Part shown: piece after piece, positions 1-44,075 of the stretch
How positions within the stretch are numbered: the stretch's first letter is position 1
Layout of the letters: every line of letters starts with the position of its first letter
Assembly (NCBI GenBank): GCA_029261055.1
Contig: JAJDCA010000026.1
Span: 5,747-69,746, forward strand
From: Candidatus Omnitrophota bacterium
GTDB lineage: Bacteria; Omnitrophota; Gorgyraeia; Zapsychrales; Zapsychraceae
Length of the DNA: 64,000 nucleotides
Direction of reading: 5' to 3'
The notes under the pieces: model-generated
The model's database searches: none
What the model was told of the DNA's origin: nothing
What the model saw: only the letters and a program-made list of their open reading frames with translations
Program-made: the position numbers and the translations under genes

Positions 1-3000
1 GCACCACCGACCGCACCATTAATGCGTCGTCTACAGATTTCAACGACATCATTATTGGGGATGGCCTTATTGGCTACTGGAAGCTAGACGAAACTGCAGA
101 CGATGGAAGTTGTGACGGTACGAATGATGCGTGTGACAGTTCTGGGTATGGTAATCATGGGGAGTGGGAAAGTGCCCCGACTGCATCAACAGATACACCA
201 AAACCGTTTAAATTTACTAATACCGGAAGCTTGAATTTTAATGGAACGAGTGATTATGTGGATGTTGGGGGTATTGATGTTACAACAGCATTTACAATGG
301 GGGGGTGGGTAAAATTTGATCAATTAGGAGGTAAAAAACAAGCGTTAATAGCCAAGTCATTTAATGCTTACCAGTTGTTTGCAAGTGATAGTCTTGATCG
401 TGTATTGTTTCAAAGTAATAGTGAGACGCCAATAGCGTACACACATAGTTTTATAATCAATAACTGGTATCACATTATGTTAACGTTTAATACTACAGTT
501 GGCTATGTTTTGTATTTAGATGGAATAGCAGTTAAAAGTGATTCCACTACAACTGTTATCAATACAAATGATATTACAACTAAAATAGGCGCAACTTCAC
601 AGACTCCACAGAATTTCCTTGATGGCCTCATTGACGACGTCCGTATTTACAACCGTGCATTATCAGCTACAGAAGTGAAGGCCTTAGCGCAATCGAAAAT
701 GCTGGAGGGTAAGGAGGGGACGTACACGTTGGCGTCGGCTTTGGATGTGGATGGAGATATTACTTTGGCGGATGGGACATTGGATGTGTCGGGGACGCCG
801 TACAATATTAATGTGGCGGGGGATTGGAATAATTATTCCGGGGTGAATGGGTTTACGGCGCGGACGGCTACTGTCGATTTGGATGGGGCGCCGACGACGC
901 AGAATGTGCGGGGGTCTACCAACTTCTACAATTTCGAAATAAGCACATCCACCGCGCAGACGGTTAACTTCGAAAGCGGCGCGTCGCAGACGATTGTGGC
1001 GAATGGGTCGCTGACGTTGACGGGGGCGTCGGGGCAATTGCTTACCCTTGCACCACTTACGGCCGCTACGGATTGGTTATTGGATTTTGACGGGGCGACG
1101 CAGTCGGTGCAGTATGTGTCGGTGTCGTATTCGGATGCGAGTAATGGGACGACGATTGATGCCTCCGACGGTACGAGTACGGATGGCGGGAATACGACGA
1201 ATTGGTTTTTTGCGCAGAATATCAGCGGGACCACGAATCTCTCGAGCGGTCGCGTGAAAGTCGCGGTCAACTCCAACCTCCGCGCCTCAACCACCGACAT
1301 CTCAGGCAGTGTGTGGACCGTGAGCAGCGTGACGTACACCAGCGGCGACATCATCACCGTGTTTGTCGATGGCGAGGCCGAGTCCACCGAATCCACCGCC
1401 GTCACCAAACACGACGGCTCCGGCGCCATCACCGGCATGGTTCTTAATCAGAACGTGCTCTCCATCGGAAGCGCCGACGACCAAAGCCTGACCGGCACAA
1501 ACTTAGGCCTTTACGACAATGCCGATGACGAAGACATCATGCACATGTTCACAGCAGCGAACATCCTCACCATCGACGCTTCGGCCGCGTACACGAACGA
1601 AATGCTCGACATCCTCTCCGGCGACACGCTTACGATCGCGACCGACGAAACCTTAGAAGCCCACAACGTCAACATCAGCGGAACTTTAACGGCGACAGGC
1701 AGCGCCACGCTCCACGTATCGGGAAGCTGGACCAACGCCGGCACCTTCACCACCAACACCTCCCACATCATGTTTACCGGAACCGAGAGCGAAACCTTAA
1801 CGAGCGGCGGCACAACCTACAACGACGTCACGCTCAACGACGGGTTGGTGGGGTATTGGAAATTAGATGAGACGTCTGTAGGTTCAACAGTTGTGGATTC
1901 GTCTGGATATGGTTATGATGGAACCCCACAGGGAACAGGAGGTGGAAATAATTTACCTCAACCCAATGCGGATGTACCGCAATTAAATTTTAAAAATGTC
2001 CAGAGTTTAGATTTTGACGGAACAGATGATTATGTAGACATTTCGTCAGGATTTGTTACTAACCAATCTGCATGTTCTGTATCTTTTTGGGCGAATATTG
2101 ATAGTGGATCAGCTACCGGGCTAACTGTTTATAGTGAAGGAATTCCAAGTGCTTGGGTGAACAGTCTTTTTATTATTTATTATGGAGATACATCTGATAC
2201 TGCAACTCCATCTGTGCGTGTTTTTTTCAGGGATGCTGCTGCAGCAGGAGGAACTCTTCTTGATTCAGATACAAGTATAAATCTTGCTGATAGTTCATGG
2301 CATCATGTGGCGTATGTTCAACGAGCAAGTAATGATCGTGAGATTTACATTGATGGAATAAGTCGTGATACAGATGCAAATAATATTTCACCAATTGTTC
2401 CAACGTCCTCATCTATTGGTGCAGCCAATAATAATGGAACTTTTAGCCAATTTATTAATGGTTTGGTTGATGACGTCCGTACTTACAGCCGTGCGCTTTC
2501 GGCTGTAGAAATTGCCCGTTTGGCGGTTGGGCGTCAACCGGCAACGGGGAGTGGGACGTACACGTTGCAGGATGCATTGGATGTGAATGGGGATCTCGCG
2601 CTCAACAGCGGGACGTTGGATGTGAATACGAACAAAGCGGTGACGGTGGCGGGGAGTTGGATGAATCACGGTGGTATCCTCACCGCTGGAAGCGGCACGG
2701 TGACACTCGATGGCACAGCGACCGGTAAGACCTTGCTCTCCGGCCAACAACAATTCAACAACCTCACCGTCAACGGCACGGGTGGCGCGTGGACATTCAA
2801 CGATGATGCGACCGTCTCTGGCGCGTTGACATTGATAGACGGAACTCTGACTCATTCAACCTTGCTCGATGTCGTCACCTTCACCGGCGACTTCCCTGTA
2901 GCCAATGCCAACGCGACCTTTGCGGGGGTCGAATCCACCTTCATCATCGATGGCGACCTCAGCTTAACGGCCGGAACTTTCACCGCCCCAAGCGAAAGCC

Positions 3001-6000
3001 TCATCATCACCGGCGCCTACACCCACACCGGCGGCACCTTCTCGCATAACAGCGGAACCGTCCTAATGACAAGCACCGTGGACCGCACCATCAACGCCAC
3101 CTCCACCACCTTCAATGACATCATTATCGGCGATGGGTTGGTAGGGTATTGGAAGTTGGATGAGACGAGCACCCCAGCGGTCGACTCTAGCGGTTACGGC
3201 AACGACGGTATCTGGACAAATTCCCCCACAGCCTCCAGCGACACTCCAAAACCTTTCAAATTTGCCAACACCGGGAGTTTGGATTTTGATGGGGTAGATG
3301 ATCGAGTGGATGTAGGAGACCCGGATATTTTAGATATGGGGACAAACGATTTTACTCTAACAGCATGGGTGAAAGCAAATTCGACACAAACTGATACACA
3401 TCCAACTATTATTAATAAAGGAGGAAGTTCAGACCCAGTAGCAGGGTATTGGTTTGCTCTTACCTCGGGAACAAAATTATGGGTAGGTATTGGTGACGGC
3501 ACTAGCAGGGCTACTTTTGATGGAGCTACTGATATTAGAGATGATACATGGCATCATGTAGCTGCGGTAGTTGACCGCGATGGTAATGGGACAATCTATT
3601 TGGATGGAGCTGTTGATGGAACTCCAGATGATATTTCTTCTCATGCAACAAAAAATATTGATACTGATGTGTACGCTTTTGGAATAGGAGGGAGGGCGGG
3701 TAGCGATATTCAATTCACAGGTATAATCGATGACGTTCGTGTTTACAAGCGTGCGTTGTCAGCCGTAGAGGTGAAGGCGTTAGCCCAAGCAAAGGTATTA
3801 GAAGCCAAGGAAGGGACGTACATGTTGGCCTCGGCATTGGATGTGGATGGGGATATTACGTTGGCGGATGGCACGTTGGATGTTTCGGGGACGCCATACA
3901 ATATTAATGTGGCCGGGGATTGGAATAATTATTCTGGGGTGGATGCGTTTACGGCGCGGACGGCGACGGTGGATTTGGATGGGGCACCGACGACGCAGAA
4001 TGTACGGGGGAATACGAATTTTTACAATTTTGAAATTAGTACGTCGACCGCGCAGATAGTCAACTTCGAAAGCGGCGCGTCGCAGACGGTTGTGGCGAAT
4101 GGGTCGTTGACGTTGACGGGGGCGTCGGGACAATTGTTGACGTTGGCACCGTTGACAGCTGCCACGGATTGGTTATTGGATTTTGACGGGGCGACACAGT
4201 CGGTGCAGTATGTGTCGGTGTCGTATTCGGATGCGAGTGCGGGTACGACGATTGATGCGACGGATGGCACGAGTACGGATGGTGGTAATACGACCAATTG
4301 GTTCTTTGCGCAGAATATTAGCGGGACGACGAATTTATCGAGCGGGCGAGTGAAGGTGGCCGTCAACTCCAACCTCCGCGCTTCCACCACCGACATCTCC
4401 GGCAGTGTGTGGACCATCAGCAGTGTCACCTACACCAGCGGCGACATCATCACCGTGTTCGTCGATGGCGAAGCCGAGTCCACCGAATCCACCGCCGTCA
4501 CCAAACACGACGGAAGCGGCGCCATCACCGGTATGGTGCTTAACCAAAACGTGCTCTCGATCGGAAGCGCGGACGACCAAAGCTTGACCGGCACAAATTT
4601 AGGCCTGTACGACAATACCGATGACGAAGACATCATGCACATGTTCACGGCGGCGAACATCCTCACCATAGATGCGTCGGCCAATTACACCAACGAAATG
4701 CTCGACATCCTTTCCGGCGATACGCTTACGATCGCAACGGACGAAACCCTCGAAGCCCACAACGTCAACATCAGCGGAACCTTAACAGCGACAGGCAGCG
4801 CCACACTCCACGTCTCCGGTAGCTGGACCAACGCCGGCACCTTCACCGCCAACAGCTCGCACCTCATGTTCACCGGAACCGAAAGCGAAACCCTAACGAG
4901 CGGCAGCACAAGCTACAACGACCTCACCCTAAACGACGGCCTCGTGGGGTATTGGAAGTTGGATGAGGCAAGCGGATCGACCGCCACCGATTCCAGTGGA
5001 TATGGGAATGATGGGACGCACACCAATTCCCCGACGATATCTTCAATTGTACCTTCTGTAAATTTTGTCAATCCACGGAGTTTAGAATTTGATGGGGCAA
5101 ATAATTATGTAGAAATAATTGATACTGGAATTTGGGATTTTCAAACAGGAGAATATGCAGTTAGTTTTTGGTTTAAAACATCCGGAAGTGCTAGGGAACA
5201 TGCTCTTCATTTTGGAAGTCTCAGTGCTAATAATCTTGATTTTGATTTTAATGATGGAGGTTATGGAATTTGGGTTTATTGGATGAGCGGAGGAGGTAAC
5301 TATGTGCGTACAACAGATTTTTATAATGATGGATCTTGGCATCATTTAGTAGTTTCTCGAAATTCCTCAGGGACGACTTTATATGTGGATAATATTGTTA
5401 AAGATCAAGATTCCGGTTTAGATAATATTGATATTGCAAGTAATGGACTTATTGGGTCGGCAATTGGAGATCATTATTGGGATGGTTTTCTTGACGATGT
5501 TCGTATTTACAACCGTGAGCTGTCAACTACGGAAGTCGCCCGCCTAGCCGCAGGCCGACAGCCGGCGACGGGGAGTGGGACGTACACGTTGCAGGATGCG
5601 TTGGATGTGAATGGGGATTTGGCGCTGAACAGTGGGACGTTGGATGTGAATACGAACAAGGCGGTGACGGTCGCCGGGAGTTGGATGAATCATGGGGGTA
5701 TCCTTACCGCCGGCAGTGGGACGGTGACACTCGACGGCACGGCGTCCGGCAAGACATTGCTCTCCGGTCAACAACAATTCAACAACCTCACCGTCAACGG
5801 CACAGGCGGCGAATGGACGTTCAATGATGACGCGACCGTCTCCGGTACGTTGACACTTACAGACGGAACACTGACACACTCAACGTTATTGGACGTCGTC
5901 ACCTTCACCGGCGACTTCCCGGTAGCGAATGCCAACGCGACCTTTACGGGCGTCGAATCCACCTTCATCATCGACGGCGACCTCAGCCTCACGGCAGGAA

Positions 6001-7388
6001 CCTTCACCGCCCCAAGCGAGAGCCTGATTATCACCGGCGCTTACACCCACACCGGCGGCACCTTCAGCCACAATAGCGGAACAGTCCTCATGACCAGCAC
6101 CACCGACCGCACGATCAACGCCACCTCCACCACCTACAACGACCTCATTATCGGGGATGGCTTGGTAGGATACTGGAAACTGGATGAAACCACTGGCAGC
6201 ACTGCCACCGACTCCAGTGGCTACGGTAACAATGGTACGTGGACAAATTCTCCGACAGCTTCTACCGACACCCCCAAACCCTTCAAATTCACCAACACCT
6301 GGAGTTTGAGTTTTGATGGGACGGATGATTATGTGGATATGGGAGATGTTTTGGAAATGACAGAAGCTAACGGAATAACCTTGTCTGCCTGGGTAAATGC
6401 AAGTAGTTTAACAGCGAATGGAGCGGTTATTGATAAATTAGGGGGTAACGGTAATTATAGGCTTCAAGTAAATGCTTCTGGTCAGGTTCGTTTTGGGATA
6501 CGAGATGCAGTAAGTTCTTACGAGGAGATGCTCACCACAGATACTTTATCAACTAATCGATGGTATCACCTTGCAGCAACTTTTGATGATGTGACAACTG
6601 GTAAAATTTATATTGATGGAGAGCTTAAAAAGACAAAAACAGATTTTACTCTTACACGAGGTGATACAGCTGATTCTTTAAAGATAGGATACACTTCGAA
6701 TAATGCTCAATATTTTAATGCTAAAATTGATGACGTCCGCATCTACAATCGTGCGCTTTCGGCATCTGAGGTAAGTGCACTTGCACAATCAAAGGTGTTG
6801 GAAGCCAAGGAAGGGACATACACATTGGCATCGGCGTTGGATGTGGATGGGGATATTACGTTGGCGGATGGGACGCTGGATGTTTCGGCGACGCCGTACA
6901 ACATCAACGTCGCCGGCGACTGGAATAATTATTCCGGGGTGAATGCCTTTACCGCTCGCACCGCAACCGTTGACCTGGATGGGGCGCCGACGACGCAGAA
7001 TGTTCGCGGGTCGACGAATTTTTACAATTTTGAAATCAGCACGTCCACCGCGCAGACCGTCAACTTCGAAAGCGGTGCGTCGCAGACAATCCTTACTAAC
7101 GGATCGTTGACACTCACCGGTGCTGCAAGCAATCTTTTAACGCTTGCCCCATTGACAGCCGCCACGGATTGGTTGCTCGACCTTTCTTCCGGCGCGTCGC
7201 AGTCGGTGTCGTATGTGTCGGTATCGTATTCGGATGCGAGTGCGGGGGCGACGATTTTGGCGAATGATGGGACGAACACGGATGGGGGGAATACGAACAA
7301 TTGGCGGTTCAGGGCATTGCTAATTATGCCGATTTTGGTGAGTTTTGTGGGGTTTGGTGTATGGAGACGCCATTTATGGCGTCTCTGA
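1..7388 (+). CDS. Giant repetitive surface protein, 5'-truncated by the window edge. Tandem LamG/concanavalin-like jelly-roll domains are separated by two alternating conserved linker types
   Basis: Frame 3 is open from nt 3 (TTDRTINASSTDFNDIIIGDGLIGYWKLDE...) to the stop at 7386-7388. The LamG hallmark LVGYWKLDE ... WHH ... DDVRIYNRALSAxEV recurs at about nt 70, 1846, 3133, 4936 and 6160. A hydrophobic stretch ALLIMPILVSFVGFGV and a basic tail end the protein. Confidence 0.85.
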   Translation, partial: TTDRTINASSTDFNDIIIGDGLIGYWKLDETADDGSCDGTNDACDSSGYGNHGEWESAPTASTDTPKPFKFTNTGSLNFNGTSDYVDVGGIDVTTAFTMGGWVKFDQLGGKKQALIAKSFNAYQLFASDSLDRVLFQSNSETPIAYTHSFIINNWYHIMLTFNTTVGYVLYLDGIAVKSDSTTTVINTNDITTKIGATSQTPQNFLDGLIDDVRIYNRALSATEVKALAQSKMLEGKEGTYTLASALDVDGDITLADGTLDVSGTPYNINVAGDWNNYSGVNGFTARTATVDLDGAPTTQNVRGSTNFYNFEISTSTAQTVNFESGASQTIVANGSLTLTGASGQLLTLAPLTAATDWLLDFDGATQSVQYVSVSYSDASNGTTIDASDGTSTDGGNTTNWFFAQNISGTTNLSSGRVKVAVNSNLRASTTDISGSVWTVSSVTYTSGDIITVFVDGEAESTESTAVTKHDGSGAITGMVLNQNVLSIGSADDQSLTGTNLGLYDNADDEDIMHMFTAANILTIDASAAYTNEMLDILSGDTLTIATDETLEAHNVNISGTLTATGSATLHVSGSWTNAGTFTTNTSHIMFTGTESETLTSGGTTYNDVTLNDGLVGYWKLDETSVGSTVVDSSGYGYDGTPQGTGGGNNLPQPNADVPQLNFKNVQSLDFDGTDDYVDISSGFVTNQSACSVSFWANIDSGSATGLTVYSEGIPSAWVNSLFIIYYGDTSDTATPSVRVFFRDAAAAGGTLLDSDTSINLADSSWHHVAYVQRASNDREIYIDGISRDTDANNISPIVPTSSSIGAANNNGTFSQFINGLVDDVRTYSRALSAVEIARLAVGRQPATGSGTYTLQDALDVNGDLALNSGTLDVNTNKAVTVAGSWMNHGGILTAGSGTVTLDGTATGKTLLSGQQQFNNLTVNGTGGAWTFNDDATVSGALTLIDGTLTHSTLLDVVTFTGDFPVANANATFAGVESTFIIDGDLSLTAGTFTAPSESLIITGAYTHTGGTFSHNSGTVLMTSTVDRTINATSTTFNDIIIGDGLVGYWKLDETSTPAVDSSGYGNDGIWTNSPTASSDTPKPFKFANTGSLDFDGVDDRVDVGDPDILDMGTNDFTLTAWVKANSTQTDTHPTIINKGGSSDPVAGYWFALTSGTKLWVGIGDGTSRATFDGATDIRDDTWHHVAAVVDRDGNGTIYLDGAVDGTPDDISSHATKNIDTDVYAFGIGGRAGSDIQFTGIIDDVRVYKRALSAVEVKALAQAKVLEAKEGTYMLASALDVDGDITLADGTLDVSGTPYNINVAGDWNNYSGVDAFTARTATVDLDGAPTTQNVRGNTNFYNFEISTSTAQIVNFESGASQTVVANGSLTLTGASGQLLTLAPLTAATDWLLDFDGATQSVQYVSVSYSDASAGTTIDATDGTSTDGGNTTNWFFAQNISGTTNLSSGRVKVAVNSNLRASTTDISGSVWTISSVTYTSGDIITVFVDGEAESTESTAVTKHDGSGAITGMVLNQNVLSIGSADDQSLTGTNLGLYDNTDDEDIMHMFTAANILTIDASANYTNEMLDILSGDTLTIATDETLEAHNVNISGTLTATGSATLHVSGSWTNAGTFTANSSHLMFTGTESETLTSGSTSYNDLTLNDGLVGYWKLDEASGSTATDSSGYGNDGTHTNSPTISSIVPSVNFVNPRSLEFDGANNYVEIIDTGIWDFQTGEYAVSFWFKTSGSAREHALHFGSLSANNLDFDFNDGGYGIWVYWMSGGGNYVRTTDFYNDGSWHHLVVSRNSSGTTLYVDNIVKDQDSGLDNIDIASNGLIGSAIGDHYWDGFLDDVRIYNRELSTTEVARLAAGRQPATGSGTYTLQDALDVNGDLALNSGTLDVNTNKAVTVAGSWMNHGGILTAGSGTVTLDGTASGKTLLSGQQQFNNLTVNGTGGEWTFNDDATVSGTLTLTDGTLTHSTLLDVVTFTGDFPVANANATFTGVESTFIIDGDLSLTAGTFTAPSESLIITGAYTHTGGTFSHNSGTVLMTSTTDRTINATSTTYNDLIIGDGLVGYWKLDETTGSTATDSSGYGNNGTWTNSPTASTDTPKPFKFTNTWSLSFDGTDDYVDMGDVLEMTEANGITLSAWVNASSLTANGAVIDKLGGNGNYRLQVNASGQVRFGIRDAVSSYEEMLTTDTLSTNRWYHLAATFDDVTTGKIYIDGELKKTKTDFTLTRGDTADSLKIGYTSNNAQYFNAKIDDVRIYNRALSASEVSALAQSKVLEAKEGTYTLASALDVDGDITLADGTLDVSATPYNINVAGDWNNYSGVNAFTARTATVDLDGAPTTQNVRGSTNFYNFEISTSTAQTVNFESGASQTILTNGSLTLTGAASNLLTLAPLTAATDWLLDLSSGASQSVSYVSVSYSDASAGATILANDGTNTDGGNTNNWRFRALLIMPILVSFVGFGVWRRHLWRL
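7364..7385. repeat. REP-like 22-nt palindrome GAGACGCCAT-TT-ATGGCGTCTC (10-bp arms), forming the last codons and stop of the giant gene
   Basis: Perfect inverted repeat read directly. The same sequence recurs at 7943-7964 and 17545-17566, and in inverse orientation (loop AA) at 7716-7758 and 7894-7919. Confidence 0.8.
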
Positions 7389-7408
7389 TCAAATATACGG
7401 AATCATAA

Positions 7409-8124
7409 TGCCACAAAAATATAAAGGGAAATACCGAATAAAATCAATCAGGATACCTAATTATGATTATTCATCCAATGGAGCCTATTTCGTCACCATT
7501 TGTGTTCGGGATGGCAGACATTTTTTTGGAGAAATATTAGAAGGGAAGATAAAATTATCAGAATATGGAAAGATAGCCACAAAATATTGGCATGAAATTT
7601 TAGATCGTTTTTCATTTGTCATCGCGGATGAATTTATTGTCATGCCAAACCATGTGCATGGGATTATTGTTATTGATGCTTCAGGGCAGAGGAAAAAGGA
7701 TTTGATAAATTATGGAGACGCCATAAATGGTGGAGACGCCATAAATGGCGTCTGTACGTTGGGGGGAGGGATGACGGGGAAGCATAATCCGATGTTGTCG
7801 TCGCATTCATTGTCGAAGATTGTGCGGTGGTACAAAGGACGTGTTACGTATGAGATACGAAAGATACAGAATTATGGAGACGCCATAAATCGCGGAGACG
7901 CCATAAATGGCGTCTGTACGAAGGGAACATCGGAATACGTAAAGACGCCATTTATGGCGTCTCCAATCAAAAGAGACGCGATTCATCGCGTCTCTGTTTG
8001 TAGGTTTCAATGGCATCCTCGGTTCCACGATCACATTATCCGCAATGAACAATCCTTACGCGAAATCCGTCAATACATTCGGGATAATCCTATGAAATGG
8101 GATGATGATCCGGAGAATATGTAG
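7409..8124 (+). CDS. REP-associated tyrosine transposase (RAYT; IS200/IS605 TnpA-like Y1 HuH transposase) with in-frame REP-derived insertions
   Basis: N-terminal block IRIPNYDYSSNGAYFVTICVRDGRHFFG, HuH motif MPNHVHGIIV, and C-terminal block RFHDHIIRNEQSLREIRQYIRDNPMKW with the catalytic-Tyr context. Compare E. coli RayT, which has HMHCIW ... RFWEHAIRN ... YIYINPVKHGW. The likely start is ATG 7409, not the track's 7345; nt 7345-7408 translate a REP (GDAIYGVS). Confidence 0.75.
7716..7758. repeat. Tandem REP copies (GGAGACGCCATAAATGG + TGGAGACGCCATAAATGGCGTCTG) inside the RAYT ORF; they translate as GDAINGGDAINGVCT
   Basis: Direct reading. Same palindrome family as 7364-7385, in the opposite orientation. 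Confidence 0.75.
7876..7995. repeat. Cluster of REP copies and variants inside the RAYT ORF (7876-7890 half site, 7894-7919, 7943-7964, variant AGAGACGCGAT-TC-ATCGCGTCTCT at 7972-7995)
   Basis: Direct reading. They translate as GDAINRGDAINGVCT ... TPFMASPIKRDAIHRVS. Confidence 0.7.
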
Positions 8125-17538: not shown

Positions 17539-17544
17539 AACATA

Positions 17545-17566
17545 GAGACGCCATTTATGGCGTCTC
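17545..17566. repeat. REP palindrome GAGACGCCATTTATGGCGTCTC between ssb and rpsR
   Basis: Identical 22-mer to 7364-7385. Confidence 0.8.
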
Positions 17567-17603
17567 ATTTAAAGTTAATTAAAAAGAGAGGAGGATAGTT
17601 ATT

Positions 17604-36887: not shown

Positions 36888-39800
36888 ATGAATATTTACA
36901 TAAAAAAACAACGTTTTTGTAGTATTTACAGGATTTTATCCGCATTTATTGCCGTAGCATTCTTAACCACCACCATTGTGCCGCAAGGATATGCCAATAC
37001 AGTGATCAGTGCGCCATTGTCAGGGATCAATTTGCCTGTGCCAGGTACTATGCTGGGAATGACCGAAAGTTTTACGCCGGTTATGGTTAAGGGTGTGACC
37101 ATTCATCCGGACAATCCGCTGCGGTTTGATTTTATTGTGGATACGGGAAATACAGAATTAGGTCAGGGCGATGCTTTGCAGGAAGAAACCACCAAATTGG
37201 TCAAATATTTTTTGGCCGCGTTGACAGTGCCGGAAAAAGAGATGTGGGTCAACCTCAGTCCGTATGAAAAAGATCGTATTATTGCCGATGGTCTGGGGCA
37301 AACCGATATGGGCCGCGATATGTTGGCACAAGACTATCTACTGAAACAAGTTACAGCTTCACTCATGTATCCGGAAGAAGAGCTAGGCGAAAAGTTTTGG
37401 ACGCGTGTGTATGCGCGCGCACAAGAGGAATTTGGGACAACCGATATTCCGATGAACACGTTTAATAAAGTTTGGATAGTGCCGGAAAAGGCCGTTGTGT
37501 TCGAAGATGAAAAAACATCAAGCACGTATGTGTTGGAAAGCCATTTGAAGGTCATGTTGGAAGAAGATTACGAGGCAATGGAACATAATGTGGATCGTAG
37601 GGGTTTGATTCATCAAACCCAAGATAAGGGCATGATAAATCATGCCCCTACGGATATCATCCGCGAACTCCTCATTCCCGAAATCGAAAAAGAAGTCAAT
37701 CAAGGTAAAACCTTCGCCAATTTACGTCAAATCTACAACTCCATGATCTTAGCCGCATGGTACAAACAAAACCTCAAAGACAGCCTATTAGGCAAGATCT
37801 ACATGGATCAAAACAAGACCAAAGGCATCGACACCGAAGACAAACAAATTACCCAAAAAATTTACGATCAATACATATCCTCCTTCAAAAAAGGCGTGTA
37901 TGACTACATTAAGGAAGACTATGATTCAGCTACGCAGCAAGTTGTGCCAAGAAAATATTTCTCCGGAGGGCTGAAGATGGGGATTGATCTTTCAATGTTG
38001 GATACCAAAAAAGGACGTGGAAATATTACAAGACTTGATGCAGAAAATGTGGGAGAAATTTTAAAATTTGGATACGACATGGTTGATTTAGGCATGGGTT
38101 CCGCAAAGATTGTAAAAATCAAACAGGCGATTAATAATGCAACGTATGGGGATAACTCCATGGTAGCAAGTGAACAAGGGCTGAAAATATCTCAATATAT
38201 CCGGGAGGGGTTTGATAGTGACGTGGAAAGAGAAAAAAGAGCAGCAGTTATTGAAGCACTTTATGATCATGTGGATGTTTTACGAAAACAGTTTAAATCA
38301 GCTTCAGCTGTCGCTGATCTTCCTGTTTTTTTTCGGACAATTTCAGATTATTTGGAGAATGAAGCATTTTTAGAAATATTAAAAGAAAAGGTTTTGACTG
38401 AAGAAAAATACAACACAAGAATATCGACAGAAGATGATTTTTTAAAGGTTATTGCGGAATTTAAAGAGATCTTAGAGATAAAATCTAGCAGCACGATAGT
38501 TGAATCTGGTGTTTGGACAGCAGTGGAAAAAATAGCAGAGATATCATTTTATTTTAGTGGTTTACACGAAACAAAATGGTCTGCAACTTATCATAAAAGT
38601 AACATTGCTATGTTTTTGGCAGAAGGGATCATGGCAGAGTCAAAAGATGTAGAGAAAGAAAAGAAAATAAAAGAAAACGCTCTTAATCTTCTAGAGGGTA
38701 CAAAGAGTTTGTTTGATCGTATTCTTTTGAACGAAAAAAATGAAGAGTATACAGATGTATTCAAAAACCTTAATCAAAAGTTAGTCAACAATATAAAAAT
38801 TTTAGACTTAGAAAGTGAGGCGGCGAAGTTGCAATATTCTCTTGAGGAATACGAAGAAGACCTGGATGCATTTGAAAATAATTTGAATCAACATTTATTT
38901 GATGTTTTTCAAGAATTTATGGGGGATATTCCAAAAGTGGATGGTTTTATTAAGGAAGTAAGAAAAACACTTAATAATATTCAAAATAAAACAGGGAGTA
39001 GATTGAAACTCATCGCTGAAGAATTGAATAAAGCGATTGATGCTTTGGAGTTGGATGTCGCCATGAGTACAGAGGTGACGTCGCTTTCTGACGAAGGTGT
39101 TAAGCTTACTCAATGGGATGATATGGATGAATGGATCTTGGCGGGAGGGAGTGGATGGGGTAGTACATACAATAGAGATCAGGAGATACATGATGGAAAT
39201 TCTTATTTTACTGATACAGCAATAGAAGAAATTTATTATCGAGACAAAATTAATTCTTCTGGTAAGGTTATGGTTATAAAACTTAAATTAAAGGTTATAG
39301 AAACAATAGTTAAAGATAAAAAAATAGACATTAATGTTCCAGAGGTGATTATTGAAACAAATGAGAATAAAGAATTTGATATTGTTGTGAACGCTGATAA
39401 AAGAAAAATAAATTTTATGATTTGGAAGGCAAAATATAATATTACGATTGTTTTTAAGGATTCTAATAGTGAATTTCAAAAAATATTTTTAAATTTTGAT
39501 AAATATCAAAATATTATGAAAAATCCCGAGTCTTTTCGTAAAATTATACAGGATAAATTTATAGCAAGTGAGTATCTGGTGAAGTTAGTAGAAGAAAAAC
39601 TTGGGGAGATAGTGCAAGATGCTACAAATTCTCTTGATCCGATAGAGCTGAACAGTATTATGTCTGAAATTAATAATGTTAAAGAAATTTTGACCCAAGA
39701 AAAGGAAAATACAGAATTCTTAAATAAAATAAAACAAAAATTAAAAAATTTATTTTTAGCTATGGGGTCAGTTAATAGGCGGAAGAAGATAGAATTTATT

Positions 39801-42800
39801 GATGCTAGAAAGGCGCTTAACGAAATCCCGGAGATTCTTGGTTTAGGGAAGATTGATTTTCATTCTGAGGCGTATGATGATGCCATGCTGACGGATGAAG
39901 GAAAAAAGAAAATTAGAACGGAGCGGGTCATCAATGGGCTTTTAGATCTTGTGGTTCCGGAGAGTTTAAAAGAAAGCGGCTTGGAGGGGGTAAGGGGCGT
40001 TATTACGCAAGTAGTTAACATAATGGAAAAAGAATGGAGTGTAAAATATTTAGAGGATACGGCATCAAAACTTGAAAAACAATTTGATGATAAATTCGCA
40101 GAAACGGAAGAAATATCAGAGAGTTATGCGCATGTAATTAAGATGTTGGAAAAAGAACATGATACTCTTGATAACGATGGAAGAGCCGTTCAACATGATT
40201 TGATTCAAACACAATTTTCTGAACTGATTGAGTCCGCAATTAATGCGTATAATGATGTTGGCAAATCGTATGCGAGATCAAAAAATATTATTTTAATATT
40301 TAGAGACGAAATAAATAGAATCCAAGTAGAAAATGAAACGAAACAATTAAAAGAAAGTGATTTTAAGAAAATAATCCATAAGGCGTTGAAGGCTACTTTT
40401 CAAAATACGCTAACGGAGGTAAGTAAGGAAAATAAAGATGCATTTGTCATCTTAAATTTTAGAACTTTAATAGATGTCATTAAAAATAAAGTGGATTCTA
40501 TTATCGAAAATATTGATGGTGACGATGAAATAGGGGAAAAAATTTATGAAATATTCAAGAATCCTCCTATGTCGGAAGCGGAGAAGGATAAGGTAGTATT
40601 CGAAGTGATTTATCCTGGGATCTTTCAATTGACAGAATATAAATTAAGTCATTCAGGTTTTGAGAAATTTCCTCACTTAGGTTTTGAGAGTCAGCCCGAA
40701 GAACTCTTTGAGGCTCTTTTTAAAAAAGTTAATAAGTCCAATTATGTGACGATACCTGTAGGGAGGTTTAGTCCGGAAGGGGACATCATTCAAAATGCTA
40801 TGAAAAGTCTTGTCGAGACAGGACAAGCCATAATTGACGGTGACATAATTGGTTTGGATGAGCCGATAGAGACAGGGTTTAAGGCAAATGATAAAGATGA
40901 TTTAGAGGACATCAGGGGAATTATGCATAACATAAAGGTTAAATTTGATAATATTACGAAGAATTTTGAGGAAAGAATTCAAAAATCAAAAGGTTTTGGC
41001 GGTAATGATCAAATTCGAGATGATTTAAAGGAATTTATTTCTAAGAATGAAATGTCTCCTTATTTGATAAGATCGATTGCGAGTATATTTGACTACATAA
41101 TCAATCATTATCTCACTGTTGGTTCAGAGCTTGATAATTCTTTTTACGAATTAGCGCATGGTTTAAATATGAGGATTGTCGGTATTAAAAAAGATGGTCA
41201 TAAGATTTTTGTAGAAGCATGGGGTAAACACGGAGCCATTTATAAGTGGAGAGAATGGACAGATGACTTGGCGAAGGATATTGCTAAGGATACTATTGAA
41301 ATAATTCATCAGAGTAAGGACAGGTCTATGGCCACAGGAAAATTGGTTGCTTTTAAGGTGCAAAAAAAATATGGGGAAGGCAATTCTCTGAAAGTAGGAG
41401 AGGCTGTTATTGAAAAGTTAAGAGAGCAAGGCGTTACACTTTCTGATTTTAATGATTTTACGATTACTTTAAAGGGAAATCTGGGGGATGGGAAGAGTAG
41501 GGCGATTAGTATTAAATTTGCCGATGTTTCTTTTTCACAGGATGACGGCGCAGTTCATATTAAAAGTAGTGACCATTTTTTGGCATGGGAGCAAAGTTTA
41601 GATGACACTAGTGTGGAGTTTGAAGGACATTTAAAGGATGATAAAGATAATACGATAAAGAGTGAGGTCTCCGATAGTTCCATGATTGTGGAAGAGTGGA
41701 TTGGAAAGAAAATTGTTGGATGGGTTATGAATGAGAAGGCGGATCCAGAAGTTAACTTTATAAAGATGGATGCTTTATTGGAGTATCTTAAAGGGGAAGA
41801 TATTATTTCTTTTCCTGAAACTGAAGATTTGCGTGCATTTTTGTTAGAGTATGGTGCTGAAAGTACGGATGTTAAGGTCGAAGGGACCAATGAAATGTTT
41901 TATGTTTCTCAATTTAAAGGGCAGGAATTTTTAGCCTGGAATCAAAGTGTAAAACTTTACAAGTCGTTAATGGTTTTTACGCATATGGATGGTATTCCGC
42001 AAGAAGATTGGGGTAGCCCTGTTCAATTTTTATTTCATTATTTAAAGGTAAAAAAAGAAAAAAGGGACGGATTTGTTAGGAAAATTTTAGAAATAATTCT
42101 AAAAGAAAATGGTTTGTATCAGGAATCATTGAGCGATGTGCAAATTGTGGGTAAAGTAAGACCCATCCTTCAAAAAATTGAAAAAACTTTTGAGCCTAAT
42201 GAGACAGTTGTTAAGGGGGTGTTCTATACAGAATTAGTTCAGTTTTCAGAAGGTTTAAAAAAAGAAGAAAACGGAAATATTTATCCTGATGAGTTGATGA
42301 AACGGCATATTGACGCCGTTATTTCTCGCCTCATGGAAGGGCGCGTATTTGAGCGTATTTCTTTTTTATTAGATAAATACCGAATGAATAATACAAATTT
42401 AAAAGGTTTGAATACGATATTAAAGTGGGTGACCGAAAAACAAGAAGACAATGCCATGAGGTCTGAAGGGCGGGAAAAGATTGAGGCTATTGCGGATGAG
42501 GTGAAAAAACGGCTAAATTCTAAAGAATATGTGGATGTGTTACGGTTATTTAATAGATTTTTGAACGTACATCAGGAAATGAAAACAAAATGGGAAGAAG
42601 AGGTATTGCCTGAGGTGACTCTTGAAAATGAAAGAGATCTCTTAAGATGGAGTTTTAAAGATAATTTAGAAAAGATGTTAAATATTTTGGAAATCATGAG
42701 AGATAAAATTGTTTATAATAATGAGTATTATGCGTATGAATCTCAAGAAACCATAGGTGTGTTCGTCAATGAATGGGATGGGCAAGGTAAAATGTCGCTT

Positions 42801-44075
42801 TTTACGACAGGTGATATACTTCATGATATGGAGTTAGTCGTAAGAGACGTGGTGATTGGCGGTATGATTGAAAAAGTATTAAACGAAGAAAAAATTATCT
42901 TAGTGTCAGGAGATATGCCGATAAATAAAGTCGATATTCATGATATGGAATTGAAGGGTGAAGCTAGCTATGATGAAATACTAGAAAGATTAAATCATAA
43001 TCTTAACGCATTCAATAAAAGTAGGCCTATTAAAATAAATGGCTATTCTGTTTTTCATGTTGATGATGTGGCCAGAATTTTATTTTCTTTGAAAGGAAAG
43101 AGGAAAAAGGGTGAGAAAATTAATAGAAGAAAGAAGAAAATAAATATGCCTTTTTCACATAAAAAGTTGTCTAATTTTGTGTATGACGCGTATAAAACGA
43201 AATATGTAAAAAAATACACAAGAATAGAAAAAATGGAGTTGGGGTGGATACGAGAGAAATTAGAGAATTTTGAGCTGTTGGAAAAGAAAGATTTCGATGT
43301 AGTTCTTAATATTGAGAGACTCGATGGTGAGCTTAGAAGAAAGCTTAATGAAAAAATTAATGTTTTGTTTGGAAGTGAAATTAAGCTGGACAATAATCTT
43401 AAGAAAGATACTAAATTGGATATTATTAAGGCTATTCGATGGGATACATTCTTTAGCGTGGTTGATTCTATTGTTACGAGGAAGGATTCTCGAGTAGATG
43501 GTGGGACCATAGATATGGCGGTAGATATTTATCAAGAGTATGTTAAAAAAAGAGAGAGTATCTTTATTAATATTGAGGTAAAGGCTTTGTTGGCGGATGT
43601 GCCCATGCTTGACAAACAAGGCATTGAATATGCTTTGGACAATATTATTTTATTGGGGCAGCGGGGAAGAATAATTGTTCCGGGGTTGTATGGTGAACGT
43701 TTTTATGAGCTTTTAGAATCAGCCAGAGTTATTGGAGCAATCGACCGTGCAATGTTCGAGATGACAGGTGAGGTCGAAAAACAAGTTAATAAAATTAAGA
43801 AGGTCGGTGGTATTAACCTTGATGCGGCGATGTTGGATTTGCAGATTAGGCGGGACGGGAATGGGGTGCCGTTGCCGGTTGCGGAGCAGGATTTCTCAAC
43901 GATACATATTGAAGGAGTTTTTCCGGTTTTTATTAATGCGACGCCAGTGAGTATTCCTCTCCTGTTGGGTTTTGCGGATGAAGCCGTTCCTGTCGGGTGT
44001 CCGTCTGATGAAGAAAGTCTCCATTGTGACCAAGCTTTGATTTTCAGTAAGCCGGAAGAAGAGATTGTTTTGTAG
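36888..44075 (+). CDS. Giant 2395-aa protein. A signal peptide/anchor and a conserved roughly 360-aa N-terminal module precede an AT-rich Lys/Glu/Asn/Ile-rich region of about 2000 aa of unknown function
   Basis: One continuous ORF with RBS AGGAG. The N-terminal module is roughly 75-90% identical to the N-terminus of the ORF starting at 61738. Confidence 0.8.
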   Translation: MNIYIKKQRFCSIYRILSAFIAVAFLTTTIVPQGYANTVISAPLSGINLPVPGTMLGMTESFTPVMVKGVTIHPDNPLRFDFIVDTGNTELGQGDALQEETTKLVKYFLAALTVPEKEMWVNLSPYEKDRIIADGLGQTDMGRDMLAQDYLLKQVTASLMYPEEELGEKFWTRVYARAQEEFGTTDIPMNTFNKVWIVPEKAVVFEDEKTSSTYVLESHLKVMLEEDYEAMEHNVDRRGLIHQTQDKGMINHAPTDIIRELLIPEIEKEVNQGKTFANLRQIYNSMILAAWYKQNLKDSLLGKIYMDQNKTKGIDTEDKQITQKIYDQYISSFKKGVYDYIKEDYDSATQQVVPRKYFSGGLKMGIDLSMLDTKKGRGNITRLDAENVGEILKFGYDMVDLGMGSAKIVKIKQAINNATYGDNSMVASEQGLKISQYIREGFDSDVEREKRAAVIEALYDHVDVLRKQFKSASAVADLPVFFRTISDYLENEAFLEILKEKVLTEEKYNTRISTEDDFLKVIAEFKEILEIKSSSTIVESGVWTAVEKIAEISFYFSGLHETKWSATYHKSNIAMFLAEGIMAESKDVEKEKKIKENALNLLEGTKSLFDRILLNEKNEEYTDVFKNLNQKLVNNIKILDLESEAAKLQYSLEEYEEDLDAFENNLNQHLFDVFQEFMGDIPKVDGFIKEVRKTLNNIQNKTGSRLKLIAEELNKAIDALELDVAMSTEVTSLSDEGVKLTQWDDMDEWILAGGSGWGSTYNRDQEIHDGNSYFTDTAIEEIYYRDKINSSGKVMVIKLKLKVIETIVKDKKIDINVPEVIIETNENKEFDIVVNADKRKINFMIWKAKYNITIVFKDSNSEFQKIFLNFDKYQNIMKNPESFRKIIQDKFIASEYLVKLVEEKLGEIVQDATNSLDPIELNSIMSEINNVKEILTQEKENTEFLNKIKQKLKNLFLAMGSVNRRKKIEFIDARKALNEIPEILGLGKIDFHSEAYDDAMLTDEGKKKIRTERVINGLLDLVVPESLKESGLEGVRGVITQVVNIMEKEWSVKYLEDTASKLEKQFDDKFAETEEISESYAHVIKMLEKEHDTLDNDGRAVQHDLIQTQFSELIESAINAYNDVGKSYARSKNIILIFRDEINRIQVENETKQLKESDFKKIIHKALKATFQNTLTEVSKENKDAFVILNFRTLIDVIKNKVDSIIENIDGDDEIGEKIYEIFKNPPMSEAEKDKVVFEVIYPGIFQLTEYKLSHSGFEKFPHLGFESQPEELFEALFKKVNKSNYVTIPVGRFSPEGDIIQNAMKSLVETGQAIIDGDIIGLDEPIETGFKANDKDDLEDIRGIMHNIKVKFDNITKNFEERIQKSKGFGGNDQIRDDLKEFISKNEMSPYLIRSIASIFDYIINHYLTVGSELDNSFYELAHGLNMRIVGIKKDGHKIFVEAWGKHGAIYKWREWTDDLAKDIAKDTIEIIHQSKDRSMATGKLVAFKVQKKYGEGNSLKVGEAVIEKLREQGVTLSDFNDFTITLKGNLGDGKSRAISIKFADVSFSQDDGAVHIKSSDHFLAWEQSLDDTSVEFEGHLKDDKDNTIKSEVSDSSMIVEEWIGKKIVGWVMNEKADPEVNFIKMDALLEYLKGEDIISFPETEDLRAFLLEYGAESTDVKVEGTNEMFYVSQFKGQEFLAWNQSVKLYKSLMVFTHMDGIPQEDWGSPVQFLFHYLKVKKEKRDGFVRKILEIILKENGLYQESLSDVQIVGKVRPILQKIEKTFEPNETVVKGVFYTELVQFSEGLKKEENGNIYPDELMKRHIDAVISRLMEGRVFERISFLLDKYRMNNTNLKGLNTILKWVTEKQEDNAMRSEGREKIEAIADEVKKRLNSKEYVDVLRLFNRFLNVHQEMKTKWEEEVLPEVTLENERDLLRWSFKDNLEKMLNILEIMRDKIVYNNEYYAYESQETIGVFVNEWDGQGKMSLFTTGDILHDMELVVRDVVIGGMIEKVLNEEKIILVSGDMPINKVDIHDMELKGEASYDEILERLNHNLNAFNKSRPIKINGYSVFHVDDVARILFSLKGKRKKGEKINRRKKKINMPFSHKKLSNFVYDAYKTKYVKKYTRIEKMELGWIREKLENFELLEKKDFDVVLNIERLDGELRRKLNEKINVLFGSEIKLDNNLKKDTKLDIIKAIRWDTFFSVVDSIVTRKDSRVDGGTIDMAVDIYQEYVKKRESIFINIEVKALLADVPMLDKQGIEYALDNIILLGQRGRIIVPGLYGERFYELLESARVIGAIDRAMFEMTGEVEKQVNKIKKVGGINLDAAMLDLQIRRDGNGVPLPVAEQDFSTIHIEGVFPVFINATPVSIPLLLGFADEAVPVGCPSDEESLHCDQALIFSKPEEEIVL

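What the first reader, a model, noticed from the sequence alone, without database searches (positions are those of the whole stretch)
1..7388. Intragenic mosaic: near-identical GC-rich linker repeats alternate with divergent AT-rich LamG cassettes
The gene is built from modules of about 1.8 kb and 1.26 kb that alternate. Each module is a LamG domain plus either linker alpha (EGTYTLASALDVDGD ... SHIMFTGTESETLTSG, at 700-1846, 3790-4936 and 6790-7300) or linker beta (GSGTYTLQDALDVNGD ... TDRTINATSTTFNDIIIGDG, at 2520-3133 and 5530-6160, plus the tail of an upstream copy at 1-66). Linker copies are about 90% identical at the nucleotide level and in parts strongly GC-rich with C-ending codons (for example 1250-1860 and 4330-4960). 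The intervening LamG domains (1860-2520, 3160-3790, 4960-5530, 6190-6790) are all different from each other and AT-rich, like the rest of the genome. Homogenised scaffolds with diversified or swapped binding cassettes suggest concerted evolution or recombinational cassette exchange in a surface adhesin. The atypical codon usage of the linkers hints at a foreign or separately constrained origin.
Basis: seen in the sequence. Interest (0 to 1): 0.6.

Follow-up and report, generated by a model that had tools for sequence, protein, structure and literature searches.

The report
Codon-dialect mosaic in giant adhesin gene
The last 7.4 kb of a giant Omnitrophota surface-protein gene alternates fast-diverging, AT-rich LamG binding domains with spacer modules whose protein sequence is almost fixed and whose silent codon positions are held, by a cause not yet known, in two unusual regimes: first G-ending, then C-ending.

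Summary
GC3 is 0.13-0.28 in the LamG cores, about 0.33 in 22 other genes of the window and 0.6-0.81 in the spacers ("linkers"). GC1 and GC2 stay flat. Each spacer holds two regimes. In the first part, G is used wherever it is synonymous (4-fold G 0.53-0.66) and Y codons stay T. In the second part, C is used wherever it is synonymous (4-fold C 0.60, Y codons 0.76-0.79 C) and R codons stay A.

The spacer copies are 95-97% identical in protein but only 87-88% in DNA. dS is 0.5-1.4 and omega 0.02-0.08, and no identical tract exceeds 14 codons. Purifying selection explains their likeness; recent gene conversion does not. LamG cores are 21-33% identical (dN about 1).

The regimes do not match GC-rich donors or plain GC-biased conversion. 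Synonymous changes run both ways in similar numbers. Alpha and beta share the G-then-C order although their codon choice is randomised. The composition is therefore actively maintained. The cause is unresolved. I favour selection on silent sites. A recombination-linked process like Borrelia vls is the main rival. The gene architecture itself is a known Omnitrophota type.

The parts
3..62 (+). 3' end of an upstream beta spacer copy (C-ending regime); the gene continues beyond the left edge of the window
   Evidence: Aligns with 3075-3134 and 6099-6158. The frame is open from position 3.
63..650 (+). LamG domain 1 (type A: follows beta, precedes alpha); AT-rich core about 270-600
   Evidence: PF13385. 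Bounded by the motifs GLIGYW and DDVRIY. GC3 0.25-0.38.
690..1841 (+). Spacer alpha, copy 1. alpha1 (708-1214) is G-ending; alpha2 (1215-1841) is C-ending.
   Evidence: Codon tables. 88.4% nt and 95.3% aa identity to copy 2. alpha1 is predicted all-beta with pLDDT 75-92. No Pfam, NCBIfam or PDB sequence match.
1842..2486 (+). LamG domain 2 (type B: follows alpha, precedes beta); AT-rich core about 1960-2430
   Evidence: PF13385. GC3 0.13-0.23. Best external relatives are 35-45% identical.
2487..3134 (+). Spacer beta, copy 1. beta1 (2520-2750) is G-ending; beta2 (2751-3134) is C-ending.
   Evidence: Codon tables. 87.0% nt and 96.8% aa identity to copy 2. Homologous to alpha at both ends (51% and 43% aa identity).
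3135..3746 (+). LamG domain 3 (type A)
   Evidence: PF13385. Core identity to the other LamG domains is 27-33%.
3786..4937 (+). Spacer alpha, copy 2. alpha1 (3804-4310) is G-ending; alpha2 (4311-4937) is C-ending.
4938..5510 (+). LamG domain 4 (type B)
   Evidence: PF13385. GC3 0.16-0.26.
5511..6158 (+). Spacer beta, copy 2. beta1 (5544-5774) is G-ending; beta2 (5775-6158) is C-ending.
6159..6746 (+). LamG domain 5 (type A)
   Evidence: PF13385, best stretch at residues 2105-2258
6804..7310 (+). Spacer alpha1, copy 3. It is terminal, has no alpha2 and is the most diverged copy. It contains a C-ending tract at about 6885-7050.
   Evidence: 79-81% nt and 88% aa identity to copies 1 and 2. The codon alignment shows runs of up to 9 consecutive synonymous differences.
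7311..7388 (+). Hydrophobic C-terminal tail (RALLIMPILVSFVGFGVWRRHLWRL) and stop codon
   Evidence: Translation. Relatives end just after alpha1 with a short GFLxYF-type tail instead.
7363..7386 (.). REP-like hairpin GGAGACGCCATTTATGGCGTCTC. It encodes the last seven residues and runs into the stop codon of the gene.
   Evidence: Sequence. Six copies in the window, against 0 expected.

Best explanation
SHOWN.
This is the 3' end of a giant cell-surface protein gene of an Omnitrophota bacterium. It is an old tandem array of a roughly 3-kb unit: LamG-A, spacer alpha, LamG-B, spacer beta. It ends in a hydrophobic tail. The 'linkers' are conserved modules, not loose linkers: alpha1 is confidently predicted as a folded all-beta module (probably beta-solenoid), while alpha2 is poorly predicted and beta was not modelled. 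Purifying selection keeps their protein sequence almost invariant (omega 0.02-0.08), while their silent sites have largely turned over (dS 0.5-1.4). The LamG cores have diverged to saturation at about the neutral rate. Their third positions (GC3 0.20) are more AT-rich than those of ordinary genes (0.33).

The spacers' silent sites sit far from that composition, in a base-specific way. G is preferred in the first part and C in the second, and only at codon position 3.

INFERRED.
The LamG cores are the ligand-binding faces under relaxed or diversifying selection, and their third positions lie at or near the AT-rich mutational equilibrium.

The spacer regime is maintained by an ongoing force. It is not inherited from a donor. 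It has outlasted complete synonymous randomisation between alpha and beta, and changes run in both directions.

MOST LIKELY CAUSE (low confidence).
Selection on synonymous sites of the constrained modules. The two regimes fall into decoding classes. G- and U-ending codons are wobble-read or need C34 tRNAs, and are rare here. C- and A-ending codons are read by Watson-Crick pairing with G34 or U34. This would give each spacer a slow segment followed by a fast one during synthesis or export of a very long polypeptide.
For: - Architecture and taxon. PF13385 tandem-repeat giant proteins are described for Omnitrophota (10.64898/2026.06.07.730766).
- Constraint versus divergence. The same mode appears in P0140 and P0142.
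- No recent conversion.
- Regimes. alpha1/beta1 have 4-fold G 0.66/0.53, Y codons T 0.75/0.67, R codons G 0.64/0.50. alpha2/beta2 have 4-fold C 0.60, Y codons C 0.79/0.76, R codons A 0.71/0.86. The host has 4-fold T 0.40, G 0.25, A 0.20, C 0.15.
- Not donor-like.
- Maintained: per-site rates are S>W 0.206 and W>S 0.265. The outgroup bias would inflate S>W, so this is conservative. Alpha and beta share the order with codon identity at chance level.
- The flip occurs only at position 3.
- It recurs elsewhere. alpha1-like modules on a 49% GC contig use the same G-ending regime: 4-fold G 0.47-0.62, C 0.07-0.10. Spacer GC3 exceeds LamG GC3 in L022 and L026.
- Conserved rare-codon clusters, and codon bias in conserved regions, are known phenomena (PMC5438181, PMC7374057).
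Against: - The regime is regional rather than strictly positional. Copy 3 of alpha1 has a C-ending tract where copies 1 and 2 are G/T-ending, and copy 1 has a small C patch.
- Thr, Ala, Gly and Ser are coded differently in the two halves. The regimes cannot both be 'optimal' for one tRNA pool.
- The other genes of the window show no sign of translational codon selection. One example is ribosomal protein L25, C3 0.06.
- Only one tRNA gene is visible, so the decoding argument is untested.
- The polarised counts are small (14 vs 9; my estimate, not a tool result, is P about 0.03 against a host-like spectrum).
- Other relatives (Kerfeldbacteria L002, L024) show no mosaic.
- The pattern is equally well described as opposed GC skew on DNA, which is what a recombination-linked or mutational process would give.
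Confidence: 0.4

Rival explanations
1. Recombination-linked composition. The conserved spacers are the only parts similar enough to pair, either between copies (many more may lie upstream of the window) or between alleles in the population. Heteroduplex repair, or selection for a recombination-prone DNA state, keeps them GC-rich with a strong, opposed GC skew. This would be like the Borrelia vls cassettes, where high G+C and GC skew are thought to serve gene conversion. LamG cores would be exchanged or diversified between these arms.
For: - GC3 follows inter-copy similarity (rho 0.81).
- Synonymous differences are clustered, with blocks of up to 9 codons (P 0.002-0.02).
- Regime patches differ between copies, as exchange tracts would.
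- The terminal copy is the most diverged, as expected at the edge of an array.
- Spacer GC3 exceeds LamG GC3 in several genomes of different GC content.
- vls cassettes have 49% G+C against 28.6% for the genome, and GC skew 0.52 against 0.18. This is held to be under selection (PMC11499132).
Against: - There are no long identical tracts, and dS is 0.5-1.4 between copies.
- Plain GC-biased conversion should raise C in the Y codons of alpha1 and G in the R codons of alpha2. It does not.
- There are no silent cassettes in 56.6 kb, no conserved nucleotide boxes at the LamG flanks and no G4 motifs.
- At 12-13% divergence, homologous recombination should be rare.
Confidence: 0.27
2. Relic scaffold with replaced or hypermutated cassettes. 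The gene, or its spacers, came from a GC-richer and strongly skewed ancestor or donor and is slowly decaying toward the host composition. The LamG cores were replaced by native AT-rich cassettes or mutate faster.
For: - The closest spacer homologues (51-59% identity) lie mostly on contigs of 50-62% GC.
- A start at GC3 of about 0.95 and 0.25-0.5 substitutions per site could leave GC3 at about 0.7-0.8 (my arithmetic).
- LamG core identities show no positional signal.
- LamG cores are more AT-rich than ordinary genes.
Against: - Donor-type codon usage has C about equal to G, C-ending Y codons and G-ending R codons. It does not match either half.
- A single host mutation spectrum cannot turn one source into a G-only half and a C-only half.
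- W>S changes are nearly as frequent as S>W.
- Alpha and beta share the order after complete synonymous turnover.
- No close LamG donors exist in the databases and no spare cassettes in the window.
Confidence: 0.15
3. Strand-asymmetric local mutation. Repeated exposure of the top strand in the first half of each spacer, and of the bottom strand in the second half, would drive opposite third-position skews without any selection. Such exposure could come from R-loops or from resection around a recurrent break.
For: - GC skew and AT skew flip together between the halves. This is typical of strand asymmetry.
- The regimes are regional, with movable borders.
- Similar G-rich and C-rich patches occur in two other genes.
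Against: - Single-strand deamination is dominated by C>T. It should lower GC3, not raise it to 0.65-0.8.
- A and T are both replaced by G (or by C) at 4-fold sites. No known single process does this.
- Positions 1 and 2 show no flip, though they are strongly constrained.
Confidence: 0.1
4. Artefact or hidden second function: a chimeric metagenome assembly, overlapping antisense genes, or a selected RNA structure.
For: - The antisense frames are open in the spacers.
- The G-rich and C-rich halves could in principle pair.
Against: - There are ten in-frame regime junctions, and the spacer copies differ from each other by 12-13%.
- Independent assemblies from other samples show the same LamG-to-spacer jump.
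- Antisense ORFs differ in length between copies, and are expected when A3 is depleted.
- The native RNA is not more stable than synonymous shuffles (z +2.95, +1.43, +0.74, +0.22).
Confidence: 0.03

Closest known systems
Tandem-repeat scaffold giant proteins of Omnitrophota with many concanavalin-A-like/LamG (PF13385) domains (bioRxiv 10.64898/2026.06.07.730766; giant genes in 10.1101/2023.11.21.568195)
   Same: - Same phylum.
- Same repeated Pfam domain.
[quoted passage not shown]
- Genes co-oriented on one strand, with strong GC skew.
   Different: Term searches of those two papers (GC content, codon, LamG, mosaic) found no mention of an intragenic composition or codon-usage mosaic, of constant spacers with hypervariable LamG cores, or of G-ending and C-ending regimes; the papers were not read in full.
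Borrelia vls antigenic-variation cassettes (PMC11499132)
   Same: [quoted passage not shown] They are thought to be selected.
   Different: - vls has an expression site plus a contiguous array of silent cassettes about 90% identical to it.
- In vls the whole cassette is G-rich and has G runs.
- Here no silent copies were found.
- Here the variable parts are the AT-rich ones, and the constant parts carry the unusual composition.
- Here the skew reverses within each spacer, and there are no G4 motifs.
Position-specific conserved rare-codon clusters (Chaney et al. 2017, PMC5438181)
   Same: Stretches of codons that are rare for the host (C3 0.11 and G3 0.23 in other genes) sit at the same places in homologous modules although the individual codons have turned over.
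   Different: - The known clusters are short.
- Here whole modules of 230-650 nt are affected.
- Here two different rare-codon classes follow each other.
- No folding or rate effect has been shown.
Codon bias linked to residue conservation (translational-accuracy selection: Akashi 1994 from my own knowledge; Lopez et al. 2020, PMC7374057)
   Same: - Conserved parts of genes differ in codon use from variable parts.
- C-bias in pyrimidine-ending two-fold codons, and a GC3 rise in genomes above about 35-40% GC, match alpha2/beta2 in direction.
   Different: - The reported effects are small shifts, and 4-fold codons shift toward U.
- Here GC3 differs by 0.45-0.6 within one gene.
- The G-ending half does not fit that scheme.
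GC-biased gene conversion in bacteria (Lassalle et al. 2015, from my own knowledge)
   Same: Regions that can recombine become richer in GC3 than regions that cannot.
   Different: - The reported effect is a few percent.
- It predicts both G and C gains at all synonymous sites. The two-fold codons here do not show this.

Membership tests
Multi-LamG (Laminin_G_3) surface protein | Repeated PF13385 domains above the Pfam threshold | tested here: met
   370 bits against a cutoff of 27.6; five stretches.
Multi-LamG (Laminin_G_3) surface protein | Relatives with the same LamG-plus-spacer arrangement | tested here: met
   P0007, P0002, P0140, P0142 and P0289 carry LamG followed by alpha1- or beta-like modules.
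Multi-LamG (Laminin_G_3) surface protein | Export signal and surface anchoring | tested here: inconclusive
   The N-terminus lies outside the window. The C-terminus is a hydrophobic stretch followed by basic residues, part of which is encoded by a REP hairpin.
Gene-conversion antigenic variation locus (vls or pilE/pilS type) | Array of silent donor cassettes | tested here: not met
   tblastn of all LamG, alpha and beta modules against the other 56.6 kb gave only chance hits (E about 0.8). The rest of the genome is not available.
Gene-conversion antigenic variation locus (vls or pilE/pilS type) | Locally raised G+C and GC skew maintained against the genome | tested here: met
   But this is found in the constant parts, and the skew reverses.
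Gene-conversion antigenic variation locus (vls or pilE/pilS type) | Segmental exchange tracts between copies | tested here: inconclusive
   Synonymous differences are clustered (P 0.002-0.02), but there is no long identical tract.
Concerted evolution of intragenic repeats by gene conversion | Copies nearly identical at silent sites, or long identical tracts | tested here: not met
   dS 0.5-1.4. Same-codon fraction 0.66-0.73, against 0.48-0.60 by chance. The longest identical run is 14 codons.
Horizontally acquired GC-rich segment | Codon usage like that of a GC-rich genome (C and G both high; Y codons to C and R codons to G) | tested here: not met
   Compare.
Horizontally acquired GC-rich segment | Ongoing decay toward host composition (S>W far exceeding W>S) | tested here: not met
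   14 S>W against 9 W>S. The per-site rates imply an equilibrium GC3 of about 0.56. The counts are small.
Diversity-generating retroelement target | Reverse transcriptase and a template repeat matching a variable region | tested here: not met
   No second copy of any LamG segment was found in the window. No ORF in the 64 kb looked like a reverse transcriptase by inspection of ORF N-terminal translations; no domain search was run on them. The rest of the genome is unseen.
Conserved rare-codon cluster | Codons rare for the host, at homologous positions in diverged homologues | tested here: inconclusive
   Rarity is met. The position is conserved between copies, between alpha and beta, and in L012. 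It is not conserved in L002, L024 and L018, and copy 3 deviates.
Conserved rare-codon cluster | Effect on elongation rate or folding | not testable with these tools
   This needs ribosome profiling or recoding experiments.

The most novel reading that the evidence does not exclude
The opposed G-rich and C-rich halves of each constant spacer are a selected DNA-level device that marks and drives exchange or diversification of the LamG cassette lying between two spacers. One possible mechanism is a recurrent break, or single-strand exposure, centred on the regime switch. That would be a new kind of programmed surface-variation system in an uncultured, host-dependent phylum. It would resemble Borrelia vls in principle but not in design.
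Probability: 0.1. Interest if true: 0.85.

Novelty: new variant of a known kind. Interest (0 to 1): 0.55.

Why it matters
Silent sites in bacteria are usually treated as following the genome's mutation bias, with small shifts from expression. Here one gene holds three sharply bounded codon regimes. Two of them (G-only and C-only enrichment) do not fit the standard explanations: a foreign origin, GC-biased conversion, or expression-linked optimisation. They have also persisted through complete turnover of the individual codons. That makes the locus a clean natural test for what can hold silent sites far from mutational equilibrium.

If the cause is decoding-related, it bears on how cells synthesise and export proteins thousands to tens of thousands of residues long. 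If it is recombination-related, it would point to programmed surface variation in Omnitrophota.

The locus also gives a practical warning. Composition-based detectors of horizontal transfer, and dS estimates that ignore codon bias, would both misread it.

Tried and rejected
- RNA structure. Synonymous shuffles kept within each half fold as well as the native spacers, or better. Rejected.
- G-quadruplex motifs. None in the gene.
- Antisense genes. Open antisense frames follow from A3 depletion and differ in length between copies. Rejected without further test.
- Chi-like strand-skewed words. Uninformative, because nearly all genes lie on the + strand, so coding bias dominates.
- Nucleotide 'recombination boxes' at the LamG flanks. 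The motifs are conserved only as protein.
- Promoter and terminator scans. At chance level.
- Retrieving the upstream part of the gene. The NCBI contig (85,384 bp) could not be fetched. An independent Logan assembly covers only about 7.9-13.2 kb of the window. The RAYT product is not on record.
- Finding the genome itself among the GTDB representatives. Not found; only distant relatives.
- Structure of the spacer. alpha1 is confidently all-beta, but alpha2 is poorly predicted. Foldseek against the PDB gave no hit with E < 1; the list is dominated by beta-helix proteins. There was no PDB or NCBIfam sequence match.
- DGR idea. No template-like repeat was found, and no ORF in the window looked like a reverse transcriptase by inspection; no domain search was run on them.
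- dS by the ML and YN00 methods for comparisons with copy 3 and for the LamG cores. These failed or saturated. I report them only as 'saturated'.
Full report
WHAT IS THERE

A single frame is open from window position 3 to the stop at 7386-7388 and runs off the left edge. So the window holds only the last 2,461 codons of a longer gene. The window is part of an 85,384-bp NCBI contig. ClpC from the window is 84-90% identical to many proteins named Candidatus Omnitrophica or Omnitrophota. The genome is 40% GC. Nearly all its genes lie on the + strand, and it has a strong positive GC skew. These traits are described for complete Omnitrophota genomes (10.1101/2023.11.21.568195).

Pfam finds five Laminin_G_3 domains and nothing in between. 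Self-alignment gives a period of about 3.0 kb. The unit is LamG-A, spacer alpha (about 1.15 kb), LamG-B, spacer beta (about 0.65 kb). The window holds two full units, the tail of an earlier beta, and a last unit that stops after the first half of alpha. A hydrophobic tail follows.

IS THE OBSERVATION RIGHT?

Yes.

- **GC3 contrast.** Third-position GC is 0.13-0.28 in the LamG cores and 0.6-0.81 in the spacers. GC1 and GC2 stay near 0.45-0.55 throughout, so this is not an amino-acid effect.
- **Background.** 22 other genes have GC3 0.33. In 250 background 100-codon windows the mean is 0.341, the sd 0.073 and the maximum 0.57. C3 is 0.108 +/- 0.051, against 0.6-0.67 in the spacers.
- **Link to conservation.** GC3 follows amino-acid identity between repeat units (Spearman 0.81, p 8e-9).

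Four corrections are needed:

1. DNA identity of the spacers is 87-88% for the two full pairs and 79-81% for the third alpha1. Protein identity is 95-97% and 88%.
2. The LamG domains share conserved N- and C-terminal flanks with positional homology. Only the cores are 'all different', at 21-33% with no positional signal.
3. The LamG cores are more AT-rich at third positions than ordinary genes (0.20 vs 0.33).
4. Each spacer contains two different regimes.

THE THREE CODON REGIMES

| Region | 4-fold sites | Y two-fold | R two-fold |
|---|---|---|---|
| Host genes | T 0.40, G 0.25, A 0.20, C 0.15 | 87% T | 67% A |
| LamG cores | A 0.43, T 0.37 | 88% T | 75% A |
| alpha1 / beta1 | G 0.66 / 0.53 | still T (0.75 / 0.67) | G (0.64 / 0.50) |
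| alpha2 / beta2 | C 0.60 | C (0.79 / 0.76) | still A (0.71 / 0.86) |

The rule that fits is simple. The first part uses G wherever that is synonymous. The second part uses C wherever that is synonymous. Otherwise both behave like the host.

The switch lies at the alpha1/alpha2 domain border. alpha1 is a module that ends many related proteins. The flip is seen only at codon position 3.

HOW OLD ARE THE COPIES, AND WHAT KEEPS THEM ALIKE?

- **Spacers, units 1 vs 2.** dN is 0.02-0.04. dS is 0.45-0.7 by Nei-Gojobori and about 0.9-1.4 by methods that allow for codon bias. Omega is 0.02-0.08.
- **Codon identity.** At identical residues the two copies use the same codon in 66-73% of cases. Codons shuffled within the same region and amino acid give 48-60%. 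Only a third to a half of the nucleotide-level signal is left. For copy 3 it is about a seventh.
- **Identical tracts.** The longest identical run is 14 codons, as chance predicts.

The spacers are therefore not being homogenised by recent gene conversion. Strong purifying selection on the protein is enough to explain their likeness.

The LamG cores have dN of about 0.8-1.2, of the same order as the spacers' dS. They are evolving at roughly the neutral rate while keeping the fold motifs and the reading frame.

The simplest history is an old tandem duplication of the 3-kb unit. Afterwards the spacers were frozen as protein and the LamG cores diverged.

The same mode is seen in relatives. In P0140 two spacers are 98% identical while the LamG cores are 22-35%. 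In P0142 the spacers are 68% identical and the cores 25-37%.

IS THE SPACER COMPOSITION A RELIC OR MAINTAINED?

Four results point to maintenance.

1. **It is not donor-like.** GC-rich genomes with the same modules (L010, L003, L014) use C and G about equally at 4-fold sites, C in Y codons and G in R codons. Neither spacer half looks like that. One host mutation spectrum cannot turn one source into a G-only half and a C-only half.
2. **Changes run both ways.** With copy 3 as outgroup, silent changes in alpha1 of copies 1 and 2 are 14 S>W, 9 W>S and 6 S>S. The per-site rates are 0.206 and 0.265, which imply an equilibrium GC3 near 0.56. The host value is 0.33. A saturated, GC-preferring outgroup would bias this toward S>W, so the result is conservative. 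The counts are small.
3. **The order survives codon turnover.** Alpha and beta are homologous at both ends (51% and 43% identity). Their codon choice at identical residues is at chance level in the N part (0.55 observed vs 0.54 expected). It is barely above chance in the C part (0.54 vs 0.45). Both still show G first and C second.
4. **It recurs in other organisms.**
   - On a 49% GC contig (L012), alpha1-like modules use the same G-ending regime: 4-fold G 0.47-0.62, C 0.07-0.10, Y codons 16-24% C. The neighbouring LamG cores and other genes do not.
   - In L022 the LamG part has GC3 0.3-0.5 and the alpha1 part 0.8-0.93.
   - On a 61% GC contig (L026) the spacer has 0.8-0.97 and the LamG cores 0.53-0.77.
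   - Not all relatives show it. A Kerfeldbacteria gene (L002) and L024 do not.

WHAT COULD THE FORCE BE?

Several ideas were tested and rejected:

- Plain GC-biased gene conversion fails on the two-fold codons.
- A selected RNA structure is rejected. Native spacers fold no better than synonymous shuffles (z +2.95 to +0.22).
- There are no G4 motifs.
- Antisense ORFs are a by-product of A3 depletion.
- Chi-like words could not be tested cleanly.

Two readings remain.

**(a) Selection on silent sites of the constrained modules.** The regimes fall into decoding classes. G/U-ending codons need wobble or C34 tRNAs. C/A-ending codons pair by Watson-Crick with G34 or U34. Both G- and C-ending codons are rare in this genome. 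Position-conserved rare-codon clusters, and codon bias in conserved regions, are known on a smaller scale (PMC5438181, PMC7374057).

**(b) A recombination-linked DNA state.**
- GC3 follows pairing potential.
- Silent differences are clustered (P 0.02, 0.002, 0.002), with blocks of up to nine codons.
- Copy 3 carries a C-ending tract inside an otherwise G-ending module.
- Borrelia vls cassettes are a precedent. There a surface-protein locus keeps high G+C (49% vs 28.6%) and GC skew (0.52 vs 0.18), thought to serve gene conversion (PMC11499132).

Against (b):
- There are no silent cassettes in the other 56.6 kb.
- There are no nucleotide boxes at the LamG flanks.
- LamG2 has no relative above 45% identity among 1.84 billion representatives.
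- The copies are 12-13% diverged.

I rank (a) slightly above (b), with low confidence in either.

WHAT THE SPACERS ARE

They have no Pfam, NCBIfam or PDB sequence match. Homologues are few. They occur in LamG-containing fragments from many uncultured lineages, at up to 59% identity. AlphaFold2 predicts alpha1 as all-beta with pLDDT 75-92. alpha2 is poorly predicted. Foldseek finds nothing significant, but the top of its list is nearly all beta-helix proteins. A beta-solenoid spacer is a reasonable reading, not a demonstrated one.

COMPARISON WITH THE KNOWN

The architecture is a member of a described class: Omnitrophota tandem-repeat scaffolds with up to 36 PF13385 copies, whose nucleotide tandems have dissolved. 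The base-specific, two-part regime in constant spacers, set against AT-rich hypervariable cores, did not turn up in term searches of the two Omnitrophota giant-gene papers I queried or in my literature searches.

VERDICT

I rate it a new variant of a known kind, with interest 0.55.

Noticed in passing
window 7363-7386, 7732-7755, 7894-7917, 7941-7964, 7972-7995, 17544-17567: Six copies of a REP-like hairpin, GGAGACGCCAT(NN)ATGGCGTCTC, where 0 are expected by chance. The first copy supplies the last seven codons of the giant gene and runs into its stop codon. The present C-terminus may therefore have been shaped by insertion of this element.
   Followed up: partly
window 7408-8124 (+): A REP-associated tyrosine transposase (RAYT/IS200-like) gene lies directly after the giant gene. 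Its reading frame carries four of the hairpin copies. It scores below the NCBIfam cutoff (46.9 vs 80 bits). Its product is not on record in the protein collection.
   Followed up: partly
L021 1-1262 and L022 1-1151: In another organism, an alpha1-type module at the end of a LamG protein is also followed by a RAYT-like gene flanked by its own, different palindromic repeats. Giant-gene ends next to REP/RAYT elements may be a recurring arrangement.
   Followed up: no
window 36888-44075 (+), especially 36978-37900: A second, unrelated giant ORF (2,395 aa). Its N-terminal part shows a weaker G-rich stretch (36978-37560, G3 0.3-0.4). A C-rich stretch follows (37608-37900, C3 0.37-0.50, G3 0-0.17). 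The rest of the gene is AT-rich.
   Followed up: partly
window 55615-56064 (+): The first 450 nt of an MtnA-like housekeeping gene are in the G-ending regime (G3 0.47-0.60, C3 0.03-0.13). The rest of the gene is host-like. Such patches are therefore not confined to the adhesin gene.
   Followed up: no
window 8128-64000: All but one of the ORFs of 150 aa or more lie on the + strand, which has a persistent positive GC skew of 0.1-0.4. This matches the one-strand-per-replichore layout reported for Omnitrophota.
   Followed up: no
window 1842-2486 vs protein library: A LamG domain of this type has 5,067 relatives at E <= 0.001. Many are in proteins with 6-16 LamG stretches and up to 7,788 aa. None is more than 45% identical.
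   Followed up: partly
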